DNA of 64,000 nucleotides, from positions 84,863-148,862 of the forward strand of contig JBAYUF010000001.1 of the NCBI GenBank assembly GCA_041675205.1, given 5' to 3'. The DNA comes from Patescibacteria group bacterium. Its GTDB lineage: Bacteria; Patescibacteriota; Patescibacteriia; GWA2-46-9. Shown here piece by piece: positions 1,904-44,594 of the stretch. Within the stretch, counting starts at the first letter, position 1, and each line of letters opens with the position of its first letter. The notes under the pieces are model-generated. The model had not been told where the DNA came from and ran no database searches. It saw only the letters and a list, made by a program, of their open reading frames with translations. A program made the position numbers and the translations under genes.

Positions 1904-3388
<1,485 letters not shown>

Positions 3389-5658: not shown

Positions 5659-5952
5659 TTATGAATGCGAAATCTCAAATGAACAATGTTTCCAGTCTAC
5701 TACTCTTTACTATTCGACAAACCCGTCACGATACGAAGCGATGAGCGGGTAATCTCCGCCAGAGGCGGATCCGCCGTTGGCGGAAGCTGCTTGTCCGCCG
5801 TAGTTCGCCGCGGCGAACGGAGGAGGGAGCTACACGCCCGTAATTTTCAATGTGGGGGCACTATAGCAGACGAGCTGGTGAGGTGCAATAATTGACCATT
5901 TCACCTTCTGTTCATTATGCTTGGCTCGAGGTCAGGAAGAGGAGGTGCCGCT

Positions 5953-6485: not shown

Positions 6486-6562
6486 CGGGGATTGGCGCAG
6501 TTGGCTAGCGCGCCTGCTTTGGGAGCAGGAGGCCGCCGGTTCGAGTCCGGCATCCCCGACCA
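6486..6562 (+). tRNA. tRNA-Pro (anticodon TGG), CCA encoded
   Basis: CGGGGAT/ATCCCCG acceptor, anticodon loop TTTGGGA, T-loop TTCGAGT. Confidence 0.9.
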
Positions 6563-6571
6563 CATTAATTT

Positions 6572-6600
6572 ACATTGCGACTTAGGTCGCAATGTTTTTA
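6572..6600 (+). terminator. terminator hairpin after tRNA-Pro
   Basis: acattgcgac-ttag-gtcgcaatgt followed by ttttta. Confidence 0.6.
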
Positions 6601-6602
6601 AT

Positions 6603-6784
6603 ATCAGTAGTCCCGCATCCTAAGTTTCCATTCCTGCTAAGCAGGAATGTATAGTAAGTCGGTAGTGCCGCTAGCGAGCGGCGCAGAAGGGCGGGGCCAC
6701 ACAGTGAGTTTAGTTCATAAAAAATTCCCTGACCCAATTTGGGTCAGGGAATTTTTGGTGTCCCGCTGTGGCGGGACTACTGAC
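6603..6784. repeat. MITE-like unit bounded by 13-bp inverted repeats tcagtagtcccgc / gcgggactactga, enclosing several hairpins and hairpin copy 1
   Basis: Exact inverted repeats lie at 6603-6615 and 6772-6784. A third gggactactga copy lies at 6841-6851. Confidence 0.5.
6719..6760. repeat. terminator-like hairpin, copy 1 (aaaaaattccctgaccca-att-tgggtcagggaatttttggtg)
   Basis: Near-identical 42-bp copy of 7081-7122. Confidence 0.8.
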
Positions 6785-6890
6785 TATTTAGAGTTATGGA
6801 CTTCGTCATAACTGAATTATTGAAGCCGCCCCACTACTGTGGGACTACTGATATTTTATACCTTTCGACCAGGTCGAAAGGATTGTTAAT

Positions 6891-6945
6891 GATGCGGGAG
6901 GGAATTCCGACGCCCTTCGTCGCCAGCAGTGCGACTCAGTGCTCT
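6891..6945. repeat. ~55-bp element: degenerate tRNA 3'-end copy (gcgggagggaattccgacgcc) fused to a conserved tail cgtcgccagcagtgcgactcagtgctct; related copy at 43360-43414
   Basis: About 80% identity to 43360-43414. The first 20 nt mimic the T-arm/acceptor 3' strand of the tRNA-Leu at 7118-7204. Confidence 0.6.
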
Positions 6946-7080
6946 GTCCTGGGCAGCGCTGAATGCTGCGCTTGCTCGCATCCATCGGCGCTCGCTTAAT
7001 TCGTCGCGTCTTCCGACGCTCCTCATTGCTTGCTGCTGCCCGCGACCGAAGGAAGTGCCTGTGGTATTCGATTCCCTCCG

Positions 7081-7122
7081 ATCGTACATAAAAAATTCCC
7101 TGACCCAAATTGGGTCAGGGAA
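7081..7122. repeat. terminator-like hairpin, copy 2. It abuts and overlaps the 3' CCA of tRNA-Leu(CAA) and works as a bidirectional terminator.
   Basis: 42-bp near-exact copy of 6719-6760. Confidence 0.8.
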
Positions 7123-7204
7123 TTTTTGGTGCCGCGGGAGGGAATCGAACCCTCACGAGGTTGCCCCCACAGGATTTTGAGTCCTGCGCGTATACCAGTT
7201 CCGC
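7118..7204 (-). tRNA. tRNA-Leu (anticodon CAA), long variable arm, CCA encoded
   Basis: Reverse complement has GCCGCGG/CCGCGGC acceptor, anticodon loop CTCAAAA, a long extra arm and T-loop TTCGATT. Confidence 0.9.
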
Positions 7205-7365
7205 CACCGCGGCAGCACTCAAACAATAGTTCCTCTTCAGCACTCGCCCATCAATTGTGCTCAAAAGCGTTGAAAGGCAGGTGAGGCGCATTGTATTTGT
7301 GTTCTGGTGCGTTGTCAAAGGGGCGCAAGTGAAGGTATACTGCCCCTCATTAATGTATACACAGT

Positions 7366-41211: not shown

Positions 41212-41222
<11 letters not shown>

Positions 41223-41358
41223 ACTACCGACTAGTTTTTCCACCAGAGGCGGATCCACCCTTGGTGGACAAGACTGTCGCCATTGTAACCACCGACTACC
41301 TAGAAGTCCCGCGAAGGCGGGGTCGGACACCTCTCCGCACTACCGACTAGTTTTTCCG
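41212..41358. repeat. direct ~30-bp repeat of the tRNA-Ser(TGA) 5' end plus flank (cacctctccgcactaccgactagtttttcc x2), with a partial anticodon-arm copy between
   Basis: Exact copies at 41212-41243 and 41328-41358. gactgtcgccat recurs at 41272-41283. Confidence 0.7.
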
Positions 41359-41446
41359 CTTTTGGCTGAGCCACTTCTTTACGAGGTAAATATACCAGTG
41401 ATTATGGCGTCGGCATAGTTTAGCTACTTCCCGATCGAATGGCAAA

Positions 41447-43234: not shown

Positions 43235-43359
43235 AGACAGTTACTTTAGCCAATTTCGTGAATATGTCCATTATAATAGAAAAAACTTCTGCAATGTGGC
43301 AGAAGAAGTTCAGCTGGTGAGGTAGGTGGAGGATTGTTTCGAAATGATTTCTGAACGAC

Positions 43360-43789
43360 CCTGAGGGAGGGATTTCCGGCGTGTCTCGTCGTCAGCAGTA
43401 CGACTCAGTGCTCTAATTTGAAGGGGAGGGATTCGCCTACAAATCGCTTCGGCTTCCGCCTCAGCGTTCGCAGGCCGCCCCTCGCGGTCTTCGTCGTCAG
43501 CAATACTCCTCAGACATCGCTGCGGGCTTCTCACCCCTCACACGAGCAAATCAATTTGCTCGTTCCCTTCCTCGGAACACTGACATTATTATATTTATCT
43601 TTTGGTATGTTCCTCGGAAGGTGGGTCGGGAATCGGTCACAACTCTCGTCGGCTTCCGCCTCCTCGGTCGCGACCCCGCCTCACGGTCTTCGTCGTCAGC
43701 AATACTCCTCAGACATCGTTCCGGCTTTCGAATCCCTCACGCGAATGAAGCAGTTCATTCGCTCCCTTCCTCGTTCACAAAGTTCACTT
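43360..43789. repeat. array of degenerate tRNA-Ser(GCT) 3'-end copies (43420, 43608) with a 28-31-bp repeat family (43384-43414, 43489-43518, 43690-43720) and repeated hairpin+tcccttcctcg blocks, 3' of the intact tRNA
   Basis: cgtcgtcagcaatactcctcagacatcg occurs twice, ~200 bp apart. gaaggggagggattcgcc and ggaaggtgggtcgggaatcgg mimic the tRNA 3' end. Confidence 0.65.
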
Positions 43790-43879
43790 CGGAAGGGGAG
43801 GGATTCGAACCCTCGGTACGGAAAAAAACCGTACAACGGTTTAGCAAACCGTCGCCTTAGGCCACTCAGCCACCCTTCC
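43790..43879 (-). tRNA. tRNA-Ser (anticodon GCT), long variable arm, CCA not encoded
   Basis: Reverse complement has GGAAGGG/CCCTTCC acceptor, anticodon loop TTGCTAA, a long extra arm and T-loop TTCGAAT. Confidence 0.85.
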
Positions 43880-44099
43880 GTATGCATCTGGCTACGCCAG
43901 ATTATAAAAAACCGTCGGCTTCGTGCCCCCGGGGTTGTTTTTTACAACCCGCCGAATGCTGCGCCTTCTCGCATTCAGCCCACTCAGCCACCCTTCCATC
44001 AAGTATTTAACGTCTGCCAAGTGTAGCCGCGAGGGGTCGATTCGTCAATTGACAAAATTGACCCAACACAGGCATTTCCGTATACTTCTCAAGTAAACT

Positions 44100-44594
44100 A
44101 TGGAAGAGCAAACAGATACAGATAGAAAGCCAGTTCGTTTTCAATGGGTGGTACCGGAGTACCACGAGTATGACCGTAGTCGGGAATGGTATATTGTTGC
44201 GGGGCTATGCGCTCTTTTTTTTCTGGGCATTGCCATTTGGTATCAAAATTTTCTCGGTGCAGTTTTGGTGCTCATCCTGACCATTATTGTGGTTGCCCAG
44301 CATGGTCAAACACCAATTGACGTAGCCGTTGAGCTAAGGGAAGACGGTATTCAGATAGGATCCGCCTTCTTTCATTATCGCGACTTGCAAAGTTTTTGGT
44401 TCATTTATGAGCCGCCTGATGTGAAAACCCTCTACTTTGATTTCCGCAGTCAATGGAGGGTTCGATTGCCTGTTCCATTGCAGGATATGGACCCAGTCGC
44501 CATTCGTGCTATGCTGCTGCAGTATCTTGAGGAGAATTTGGAACGTGAAGCAGAGCCAACCAGTGATTCCTTAAGTCGTTGGTTACAATTATAG
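44100..44594 (+). CDS. hypothetical membrane protein (164 aa, two TM helices)
   Basis: Clean ORF with a hydrophobic hairpin (IVAGLCALFFLGIAIWY / LGAVLVLILTIIVV). Confidence 0.5.
   Translation: MEEQTDTDRKPVRFQWVVPEYHEYDRSREWYIVAGLCALFFLGIAIWYQNFLGAVLVLILTIIVVAQHGQTPIDVAVELREDGIQIGSAFFHYRDLQSFWFIYEPPDVKTLYFDFRSQWRVRLPVPLQDMDPVAIRAMLLQYLEENLEREAEPTSDSLSRWLQL

What the first reader, a model, noticed from the sequence alone, without database searches (positions are those of the whole stretch)
43360..44000. Serial degenerate copies of the tRNA-Ser(GCT) 3' end, and a ~55-bp element shared with the tRNA-Leu locus 36 kb away
3' of the intact tRNA-Ser(GCT) (43790-43879, minus) there are at least two degenerate copies of its 3' end, at 43420 and 43608. 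Each belongs to a ~200-bp unit with a conserved 28-mer (cgtcgtcagcaatactcctcagacatcg x2; cgtcgtcagcagtacgactcagtgctct) and a hairpin+tcccttcctcg block. A 5'-end fragment (ccactcagccacccttcc) recurs at 43979-43996. Separately, 43360-43414 is ~80% identical to 6891-6945 next to tRNA-Leu(CAA). Both long-arm tRNAs therefore carry the same pseudo-tRNA-tail plus 28-mer element. That pattern fits repeated site-specific integration and excision of an element targeting long-arm tRNA 3' ends, or a small nonautonomous element. Translated copies give a recurring RALSRTADDExRRxSLP peptide, which I consider incidental.
Basis: seen in the sequence. Interest (0 to 1): 0.6.

Follow-up and report, generated by a model that had tools for sequence, protein, structure and literature searches.

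The report
tRNA-linked repeats beside a Patescibacteria tRNA-Ser
The tRNA-Ser(GCU) gene of this uncultured Patescibacteria (CPR) bacterium is followed by about two and a third tandem ~200-bp units built from rearranged pieces of the tRNA itself, the same design as the long-known but functionally unexplained "tRNA-linked repeats" of E. coli, and nothing points to scars of an integrating element.

Summary

The window comes from a Patescibacteria MAG. Between a predicted promoter (44048-44020) and a predicted terminator (43305-43286), all on the minus strand, lie in order:
- a pseudo-5' half of tRNA-Ser(GCU)
- the intact tRNA
- two ~190-bp units, S2 and S1 (72% identical to each other)
- a truncated third piece, S0, which is 80% identical to part of an element behind tRNA-Leu(CAA)

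Each unit holds an inverted copy of the tRNA's T-loop/T-stem/acceptor 3' strand, GC-rich hairpins, and a direct degenerate copy of the tRNA 3' end. The inverted and direct copies pair into an acceptor/T-arm-like helix.

A homologous unit sits at the same place in a distant relative. It is 76% identical, while neighbouring non-coding DNA is at random level, and 11 base pairs have changed on both sides while staying paired.

The E. coli tyrT 178-bp repeats (RtT, a "tRNA-linked repeat") show the same architecture, including the inverted T-arm copy. There is no detectable sequence homology between the two.

No recombinase gene is in the window, and there are no phage, plasmid or viral matches.

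Verdict: a new, non-homologous member of the tRNA-linked-repeat kind, probably a co-transcribed structured trailer RNA. Serial integration is not supported.

The parts
44020..44048 (-). Predicted sigma-70-type promoter TTGACG-17-TACACT for the tRNA-Ser(GCU) transcription unit
   Evidence: The same hexamers occur upstream of tRNA-Ser(GCU) in relatives L044 and L050 (read).
43881..43997 (-). Upstream pseudo-5' half of tRNA-Ser(GCU). It holds a 5' copy at 43977-43997, hairpin A at 43954-43976 (similar to 6961-6983 at the Leu locus), hairpin B at 43931-43950, and an anticodon-stem remnant plus U-run at 43906-43930.
   Evidence: D4; tRNA positions 2-29 and 23-35; z -3.7. A homologous module with hairpins of different sequence lies in L050 4972-5090.
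43789..43880 (-). Intact tRNA-Ser(GCU), with no encoded CCA
43608..43775 (-). Trailer unit S2. On the + strand: degenerate direct 3'-end copy at 43608-43632; 28-mer at 43691-43718; inverted T-loop/T-stem copy at 43727-43740; 22-nt hairpin at 43741-43762; inverted acceptor-strand copy TCCCTTCCTCG at 43763-43773.
   Evidence: (covariance-model hit 43620-43774, 190 bits)
43576..43607 (-). AT-rich spacer between units S2 and S1
   Evidence: Read
43418..43575 (-). Trailer unit S1. Direct 3'-end copy at 43420-43435 (16/16); 28-mer at 43492-43519; degenerate inverted T-arm copy at 43527-43541; hairpin at 43542-43563; TCCCTTCCTCG at 43564-43574.
   Evidence: z -5.1; 170 bits
43360..43414 (-). S0, a truncated third element: 23-mer hairpin (GUCGU ACUGCUG ACGAC) plus a pseudo T-stem 3' strand. 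It is 80% identical to 6891-6945.
43276..43305 (-). Predicted intrinsic terminator (7-bp stem plus T-run) closing the tRNA-Ser unit, just before the promoter of the ABC-transporter gene
7127..7213 (-). tRNA-Leu(CAA), with encoded CCA
6890..7080 (-). Element at the Leu locus. Inverted T-arm copy at 7067-7079; hairpins; the 55-nt module at 6891-6945, with its 23-mer hairpin at 6917-6939; degenerate direct 3'-end copy ATTCCCTCCCGC.
   Evidence: I7; local covariance-model hit 6912-6944, E 0.006
6713..6765 (-). Second copy (92% identical) of the tRNA-Leu terminator hairpin plus the first 10 nt of the tRNA 3' end (compare 7084-7136). It overlaps a 7-bp hairpin ending in ACCA at 6756-6777.
   Evidence: (D1, I1, I3, I4)

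Best explanation
This is a tRNA-linked repeat array. It is a set of trailer and leader modules made from partial, rearranged copies of the adjacent tRNA gene, and it lies inside the tRNA-Ser(GCU) operon.

Shown by the sequence:
- Each ~160-190-nt unit starts with an inverted copy of the tRNA's T-loop/T-stem/acceptor 3' strand. In S1, S2 and the L044 unit this copy is interrupted by a 22-nt hairpin.
- It continues with two long GC-rich hairpins.
- It ends with a direct degenerate copy of the tRNA 3' end.
- On the tRNA strand, the inverted and direct copies pair into an acceptor-like helix plus a T-stem-like helix that closes the unit.

Inferred:
1. The units are transcribed with the tRNA from the 44048 promoter through to the 43305 terminator.
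2. The tRNA-like closing helix and pseudo-3' end act as processing signals for the tRNA end-maturation enzymes (RNase P; RNase Z or RNase E-type cleavage). Each unit is thereby released as a discrete structured RNA.
3. What that RNA then does is unknown, as it is for the E. coli tRNA-operon repeats.
4. The array arose and changes copy number through partial tandem duplication, through strand switching at the palindromic T-arm, and through unequal or ectopic homologous recombination between tRNA-end copies. Ectopic recombination would also explain the module shared with the tRNA-Leu(CAA) locus, because that tRNA has a near-identical T-arm.
For: Architecture:
- Exact inverted T-arm copies at both loci (I2; I7) and direct 3'-end copies.
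- Minimum-free-energy folds with acceptor-like and T-like closing helices: S1 z -5.1, S2 z -3.0, L044 z -3.5, L050 z -2.6.

Same design in the known E. coli case:
- The tyrT/tyrV 178-bp units carry a direct 19-nt tRNA 3' end and a 22-nt inverted T-arm copy.
- The Rfam RtT consensus structure closes with that same pairing.
- PMC8144298 defines tRNA-linked repeats (TLRs) by this 3'-end copy, counts 22 at 10 E. coli loci, and proposes the copy as an RNase E processing signal.

Constraint:
- A homologous unit lies at the same site in L044, a relative whose neighbouring protein is only 55% identical.
- S2 is 76% identical to the L044 unit, against 43.5% for adjacent non-coding DNA.
- In the consensus structure, 96.9% of cells are paired. 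11 pairs changed on both sides, against 5.3 +/- 1.4 in shuffles (0 of 500) and 0 in all slid controls.
- The tRNA strand folds better than the opposite strand (-46.4 against -34.4 kcal/mol) and has invariant G-U pairs.

Operon position: predicted promoter and terminator bracket the whole block.

Recombination dynamics: strain L018 has a duplicated S2 5' part whose junction lies exactly at the pseudo-3' end.
Against: - No expression data exist. The promoter and terminator are consensus matches only.
- Only three independent unit lineages are available (S1, S2/L018, L044). The structure was derived from the same sequences on which it was counted.
- The pseudo-3' ends look decayed: T-stem mismatches in S2, and a 55-nt insertion in L044. 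Tight selection on a processing signal would not predict that.
- Hairpin changes on both sides can arise from mutation at quasi-palindromes, without any selection on an RNA.
- At the Leu locus a terminator hairpin stands between the tRNA and the element, so co-transcription there would need read-through.
- Relative L047 has no unit at all, and L050 has a non-alignable one.
Confidence: 0.55

Rival explanations
1. Neutral debris. The units are decaying partial tandem duplicates of the tRNA gene and its flanks. Replication slippage or template switching at the tRNA's palindromic arms produced them, and they are tolerated because one intact gene copy remains. They have no RNA function.
For: - Pseudo-fragments flank many tRNAs in these genomes, in the only arrangement that keeps one intact gene: 5' copies upstream, 3' copies downstream.
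- Breakpoints recur in the anticodon loop and the T-loop.
- The L050 unit also contains tRNA positions 6-18, as a decayed whole copy would.
- L064 has a plain 5'-truncated pseudo-tRNA-Leu.
- The pseudo-3' ends are degenerate.
- L047 lacks the unit.
Against: - Unit identity is 72-76% between paralogues and between species, while adjacent non-coding DNA is at random level.
- Unpaired segments are conserved as well.
- 11 pairs changed on both sides, with 96.9% of cells paired.
Confidence: 0.18
2. Relics of serial site-specific integration. Elements with a tyrosine or serine integrase repeatedly integrated into the tRNA 3' end. Each event displaced a 3'-end copy (attR), and the elements were later deleted down to about 170 bp.
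For: - Direct 3'-end copies start in the T-loop, a classic crossover position.
- The region beyond S2 differs between strains. L018 carries a MazG-like gene and an 89-aa gene there.
- Relative L047 has an empty site.
- In relatives L060/L061 a ~4.5-kb block with AbiEii and Mu-Gam-like genes lies between tRNA-Arg and recG.
Against: - No recombinase was found in the 64-kb window.
- The units carry no cargo and lie inside the tRNA operon.
- Independent deletions would not leave homologous ~160-nt bodies with conserved structure in two species.
- Inverted tRNA-arm copies are not a feature of att scars.
- There are no phage, plasmid or viral matches.
- The E. coli counterpart shows the same design. 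The paper consulted (PMC8144298) describes it only as a processing-linked repeat and does not mention an integrase.
Confidence: 0.14
3. A small non-autonomous mobile element (MITE- or CIME-like). Its terminal inverted repeats mimic tRNA 3' ends, and it is moved in trans to sites next to tRNAs with the GAGGGUUCGAWUCCCUCCC T-arm.
For: - Each unit is bounded by inverted copies of the tRNA 3' end.
- A 55-nt module is shared by two tRNA loci 36 kb apart.
- The S0 hairpin differs from the Leu copy by a change on both sides of one pair, GUCGC/GCGAC against GUCGU/ACGAC (read).
Against: - The covariance model of the unit finds no further copy in 208 kb of this genome, its relatives and the E. coli tyrT locus.
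- The 23-mer occurs only at the two tRNA loci in the window.
- There are no target-site duplications and no transposase.
- Ends and bodies differ from locus to locus, so there are no uniform copies.
Confidence: 0.1

Closest known systems
E. coli tRNA-linked repeats (TLRs), in particular the tyrT/tyrV 178-bp repeat (RtT RNA, Rfam RF00391; genes rttR and tpr)
   Same: - They lie immediately 3' of a tRNA gene, on the same strand, within the operon.
- They form tandem units of about 180-200 bp.
- Each unit ends in a copy of the tRNA 3' end.
- Each unit carries an inverted T-arm copy that pairs with that end to close a multi-hairpin structure.
- Related repeats occur at several tRNA/rRNA loci, each with a 3' end fitted to the local gene (PMC8144298).
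- Function is unknown.
   Different: - There is no detectable sequence or covariance-model homology in either direction. Rfam RtT gives no hit at E up to 10. The model of the Patescibacteria unit scores only 5.6-7.3 bits on RtT, E about 1.
- The host is a Patescibacteria bacterium, not an enterobacterium.
- The partner tRNAs are Ser(GCU) and Leu(CAA), not Tyr.
- The 3'-end copies are shorter and more degenerate: 16/16, 12/12, or gapped, against 18-19 exact.
- There is no tpr-like ORF.
- A pseudo-5' module lies upstream of the tRNA.
att-site scars, tandem accretion and cis-mobilizable elements (CIMEs) left by integrase-driven elements at tRNA genes (own knowledge: Williams 2002; Pavlovic et al. 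2004)
   Same: Direct repeats of the tRNA 3' part lie downstream of an intact tRNA. The arrangement is serial. Strains differ at the locus.
   Different: There is no integrase and no cargo. Inverted tRNA-arm copies are present. The units are conserved and structured across species, and they lie inside the transcription unit.
Functional tRNA-operon spacer RNAs such as 3'ETS-leuZ of E. coli (cited in PMC8144298; Lalaouna et al. 2015 from own knowledge) and the rrn-operon TLR sRNAs RrA/RrB/RrF
   Same: These are non-coding RNAs transcribed as part of a stable-RNA operon and released by the maturation nucleases.
   Different: Those act as sponges for small RNAs or bind Hfq and CsrA. No such partner or motif has been shown here, and Patescibacteria may lack these proteins.
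MITEs and REP-type intergenic repeats
   Same: They are short, hairpin-rich, have inverted ends and are intergenic.
   Different: The elements here are not dispersed. They have no target-site duplication, and their ends derive from the neighbouring tRNA.

Membership tests
tRNA-linked repeats (TLRs; definition in PMC8144298) | Located in a tRNA or rRNA operon, immediately downstream of the stable-RNA gene | tested here: met
   Units S2, S1 and S0 follow tRNA-Ser(GCU) on the same strand, between the predicted promoter at 44048-44020 and the predicted terminator at 43305-43286. Operon membership is predicted, not measured.
tRNA-linked repeats (TLRs; definition in PMC8144298) | The 3' end of the repeat (18-19 bp) is identical to the 3' end of the gene immediately upstream | tested here: inconclusive
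   S1 matches 16/16 but lacks the last 2 nt. S2 has 18 matches over 22 columns, including gaps. S0 matches 10/10. The Leu element matches 12/12. The feature is present in kind, but shorter and more degenerate than in E. coli.
tRNA-linked repeats (TLRs; definition in PMC8144298) | One to five repeats per locus, and related repeats at several stable-RNA loci | tested here: met
   There are 2 full units plus 1 truncated unit at the Ser locus. A related 55-nt module lies at the Leu(CAA) locus. The rest of the genome could not be searched.
RtT RNA (Rfam RF00391) | A match to the family covariance model at or above the gathering score (45 bits) | tested here: not met
   No RtT hit at E up to 10 in 43250-44100 or in 6550-7230. 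The same search finds all 4 E. coli copies at 133-138 bits.
RtT RNA (Rfam RF00391) | A closing helix formed by an inverted T-arm/acceptor copy and the pseudo-3' end, enclosing internal hairpins | tested here: met
   for the Patescibacteria units; for RtT.
RtT RNA (Rfam RF00391) | A small basic ORF (tpr) inside the repeat | tested here: not met
   No frame with a start codon is shared by S1, S2 and the L044 unit.
RtT RNA / TLR | Transcribed and processed into a discrete RNA | not testable with these tools
Integrase-generated att repeats / CIME | A tyrosine or serine recombinase gene in or beside the array | tested here: not met
   Pfam scans and precomputed Pfam marks for the window ORFs of 150 aa or more that were examined show none. 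The rest of the genome was not tested.
Integrase-generated att repeats / CIME | Direct repeats that run from a fixed crossover point in the tRNA to its 3' end and flank foreign DNA | tested here: inconclusive
   The copies do start in the T-loop. What they flank, however, is conserved structured non-coding units, not cargo. In strain L018 two small genes follow the array.
MITE | Many dispersed near-identical copies with terminal inverted repeats and target-site duplications | tested here: not met
   The covariance model finds copies only at the tRNA-Ser(GCU) 3' flank in 208 kb. The 23-mer occurs only at two tRNA loci. No target-site duplications are present.

The most novel reading that the evidence does not exclude
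The units are a selectively maintained, independently evolved family of RNAs that mimic the top half of a tRNA. The tRNA-processing enzymes would excise them from the tRNA-Ser operon, and they would act in trans, for example as decoys or regulators of tRNA-binding enzymes. On this reading, a trailer RNA closed by a tRNA-end mimic is a recurrent solution reached separately in Enterobacteria and in Patescibacteria. A related possibility is that tRNA genes in this clade are renewed when a complete incoming tRNA cassette inserts into the resident gene and leaves old 5' halves upstream and old 3' ends downstream. The nested remnants of two different alleles around tRNA-Ser(UGA) in L050, and the variant pseudo-tRNA-Leu in L064, suggest this.
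Probability: 0.2. Interest if true: 0.6.

Novelty: new member of a known kind. Interest (0 to 1): 0.4.

Why it matters
tRNA-linked repeats have been known in E. coli since 1978. For the copies in tRNA operons, neither a function nor a mechanism of origin has been established.

This second example is unrelated in sequence and comes from a very distant, genome-reduced lineage. It has the same inverted-plus-direct tRNA-end design, and it is conserved between species in a way that preserves structure.

That argues the design is either produced repeatedly by a general mutational process at tRNA genes or selected repeatedly for a processing-related role. It also provides comparative material for telling the two apart.

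On the practical side, it warns annotators that pseudo-tRNA ends next to tRNAs are not by themselves evidence of integrated elements.

Tried and rejected
- **Scans of genome contigs and metagenome contigs with the 23-mer.** They returned 16 and 22 hits. All are chance matches in unrelated, mostly GC-rich genomes with no similarity in the flanks. The scans did not even recover the known JGI contig L018. The source population is therefore not in those collections, and the negative result says nothing about this genome. The covariance model gives only 5.6-7.3 bits, so this is treated as unproven.\n- **The unit's central part as a decayed copy of the tRNA 5' end and anticodon loop** (13/16 match, UUGCU loop). 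Not significant in local alignment.\n- **Unit-like sequence beyond the L018 gene cassette.** Only a 12-nt match.\n- **Relatives reached through RecG homologues P0007, P0008 and P0016.** The DNA fetched did not include the tRNA-Ser locus.

Full report
**Source and context**

The window matches ENA contig ERZ27247358:k141_1393887 (213 kb). NCBI names its proteins as from a "Patescibacteria group bacterium" MAG. The nearest RecG relatives are only 43-44% identical.

The genes around the finding are housekeeping: an ABC transporter, a 164-aa protein, tRNA-Arg, RecG and RadA. None of the window's ORFs of 150 aa or more that were examined has an integrase, transposase or reverse-transcriptase domain.

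**Observation**

All the listed repeats are present.

- tRNA-Ser(GCU) is at 43789-43880 on the minus strand.
- Two units follow it with a 199-200 nt period. I call them S2 (43608-43775) and S1 (43418-43575). They are 72% identical.
- The 28-mer is identical in both units, and a variant lies at 43387-43414.
- The 23-nt core of the 28-mer occurs four times in the window against 0.01 expected. The fourth copy is at 6917, behind tRNA-Leu(CAA).
- 43360-43414 (S0) is 44/55 identical to 6891-6945.
- The 5' fragment at 43980-43997 is exact.

**Anatomy**

Read on the tRNA strand, each unit has three parts.

1. It begins with CGAGGAAGGGA, a 22-nt perfect hairpin, then GUGAGGGAUUCGAA. Apart from the hairpin, this is the reverse complement of the tRNA's own UUCGAAUCCCUC-CCCUUCCG. 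The match is 12/12 for the T-loop/T-stem part (I2).
2. Two long GC-rich hairpins follow.
3. It ends with a direct, degenerate copy of the tRNA 3' end: 16/16 in S1, gapped in S2.

The Leu-locus element is built the same way, with a 13/13 inverted copy at 7067-7079 and the direct copy ATTCCCTCCCGC.

In predicted folds the inverted and direct copies pair into an acceptor-like helix plus a T-stem-like helix that closes the unit. The z-scores are -5.1 (S1), -3.0 (S2), -3.5 (L044) and -2.6 (L050).

Upstream of the tRNA lies a pseudo-5' half. It consists of tRNA positions 2-29, two hairpins, then positions 23-35, and it ends in a U-run at the anticodon-loop position.

A sigma-70-like promoter (44048-44020) and an intrinsic terminator (43305-43286) are predicted on the minus strand. 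They bracket the pseudo-5' module, the tRNA, S2, S1 and S0.

**Relatives**

- *L044* (JGI 3300037810) has conserved synteny, and its neighbouring protein is 55% identical. It has one homologous unit at the same site. The L044 unit is 76% identical to S2 and 71% to S1. The adjacent promoter region aligns at 43.5%, which is random level.
- *The hairpin next to the acceptor-strand copy* differs in sequence between copies but stays perfect: GCGAAUGAA/UUCAUUCGC, ACGAGCAAA/UUUGCUCGU and GCGAGCAAA/UUUGCUCGC.
- *The 28-mer region* is not conserved in sequence in L044, but it still forms a hairpin there.
- *Consensus structure* on the tRNA strand: 96.9% of cells are paired. 11 pairs changed on both sides, against 5.3 +/- 1.4 in shuffles (0 of 500) and none in the slid controls. 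The opposite strand folds worse.
- *Covariance model R1*, built from these four sequences, finds a variant unit in strain L018 (94 bits) and nothing else in 208 kb of this genome, its relatives and the E. coli locus. With filters off, only the 23-mer hairpin of the Leu element scores, locally.
- *L050* has a non-alignable unit of the same architecture, plus a homologous upstream module whose hairpins differ in sequence.
- *L047* has an empty site, with tRNA-Ser(UGA) 25 nt after tRNA-Ser(GCU).
- *Strain L018* is 99.4% identical from S2 through recG. It diverges exactly at the S2 pseudo-3' end. There it carries a second unit whose first ~75 nt repeat those of S2, then a MazG-like gene and an 89-aa gene. 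That is what unequal recombination between tRNA-end copies would produce.

**Known counterpart**

I recalled the E. coli tyrT 178-bp repeats and fetched the locus as L052.

- It has four units. Each has the direct 19-nt tRNA-Tyr 3' end and a 22-nt inverted T-arm copy that is 86% complementary.
- The Rfam RtT consensus closes with exactly this pairing.
- PMC8144298 names the class tRNA-linked repeats. It counts 22 at 10 loci and gives the 18-19-bp copy of the upstream gene's 3' end as the hallmark. It says the tRNA-operon members have no known function, because the 1991 claim about the stringent response was withdrawn in 1994. It proposes the 3' copy as an RNase E processing signal.
- Homology was tested in both directions and not found.

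The window's array therefore works like a TLR and meets the positional and architectural criteria. It is not a member of the RtT sequence family.

**Wider pattern**

In 35 tRNA genes of this clade, 16-mer copies of tRNA ends within 700 nt number 13 against 0.1 expected. Two of the 13 are neighbouring real tRNA-Ser genes. All 5' copies are upstream, all 3' copies are downstream, and all are direct.

Breakpoints recur in the anticodon loop and the T-loop.

This fits partial tandem duplication or cassette insertion at tRNA genes. It also fits integrase crossover sites, so position alone does not decide between them.

Four things speak against integration scars:
- the inverted copies
- the absence of cargo and of any recombinase
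- the location inside the operon
- the conservation between species

**Conclusion**

- Best reading (0.55): a tRNA-linked repeat array that is transcribed with tRNA-Ser(GCU). Its units fold into structures closed by a tRNA-end mimic and are probably cut out by tRNA-maturation nucleases. The array is generated and reshuffled by local duplication and by recombination between tRNA-end copies.
- Rivals: neutral duplication debris (0.18), integration relics (0.14), a non-autonomous mobile element (0.10).
- Transcription, processing and function are inferred, not shown.

Noticed in passing
L050 2590-3015: tRNA-Ser(UGA) is nested like an onion. Two pseudo-5' halves lie upstream, both cut in the anticodon loop, and two pseudo-3' ends lie downstream. 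They belong to two different alleles: a GGCGGAGAGGUG...CACCCUCUCCGCC type, and the resident GCGGUGGGUU...CACCCACCGC type. This suggests that incoming tRNA copies have repeatedly replaced the gene.
   Followed up: partly
L064 9655-9880 (same genome as L044): Directly after tRNA-Leu(CAA) comes a 5'-truncated pseudo-tRNA-Leu. Its 3' 43 nt are identical to the gene, but its anticodon stem is a different, fully paired one. The terminator follows. A 15-nt pseudo-5' fragment with a copy of the leader lies about 35 nt upstream of the gene (its first base ~50 nt from the tRNA's).
   Followed up: partly
window 41221-41360 and 5740-5840: Upstream of tRNA-Ser(UGA), a 30-nt direct repeat (leader plus the first bases of the tRNA 5' end) flanks a decayed pseudo-tRNA. 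Upstream of tRNA-Ile lies a 5'-end copy (5824-5839). Both regions share the exact 14-mer CCAGAGGCGGATCC followed by a hairpin (about 5760 and 41243).
   Followed up: partly
L046 1-430: A GIY-YIG nuclease gene (Pfam E 1.3e-12, with an in-frame stop) is inserted just upstream of tRNA-Ser(GCU). An ~83-nt duplication that includes the tRNA 5' end flanks it. A free-standing homing-type nuclease may therefore be one source of the duplications at tRNA genes.
   Followed up: partly
window 6600-6860: The motif GGGACTACTGAYA occurs three times (6602 on the minus strand; 6773 and 6841 on the plus strand). On the tRNA strand each copy lies next to a short GC hairpin. One hairpin is a 7-bp stem ending in ACCA (6756-6777) right before a duplicated terminator, which resembles an acceptor microhelix. 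The same motif with a hairpin occurs in the L018 variant unit.
   Followed up: no
window 6713-6765 and 7084-7136: The bidirectional terminator hairpin after tRNA-Leu(CAA), plus the first 10 nt of the tRNA 3' end, is duplicated 371 nt away at 92% identity. The same terminator is about 90% conserved in L064.
   Followed up: partly
L060/L061 450-5000: In Uhrbacteria-like relatives a ~4.5-kb block lies between tRNA-Arg(GCG) and recG. It holds bestrophin-like and AbiEii genes, plus a Mu-Gam-like gene in L061. In the window these two genes are adjacent. No second copy of the tRNA-Arg 3' end was found.
   Followed up: partly
L052 (E. coli K-12 1286700-1287500): Each RtT/TLR unit of the tyrT locus contains a 22-nt inverted copy of the tRNA-Tyr T-arm in addition to the well-known direct 19-nt 3'-end copy. 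It also contains a further direct T-arm fragment.
   Followed up: yes
window 1904-3386: The 16S rRNA gene (1483 nt, no insertion) is not followed by tRNA-Ile/Ala or by a 23S gene. tRNA-Ile lies 2 kb away on the opposite strand, so the rRNA operon is unlinked.
   Followed up: no
L018 190-790: The strain-specific genes after the repeat array are a MazG-like protein (101 aa) and an 89-aa protein with no Pfam match, followed by a strong terminator. The contig ends before the far junction, so insertion and replacement cannot be told apart.
   Followed up: partly
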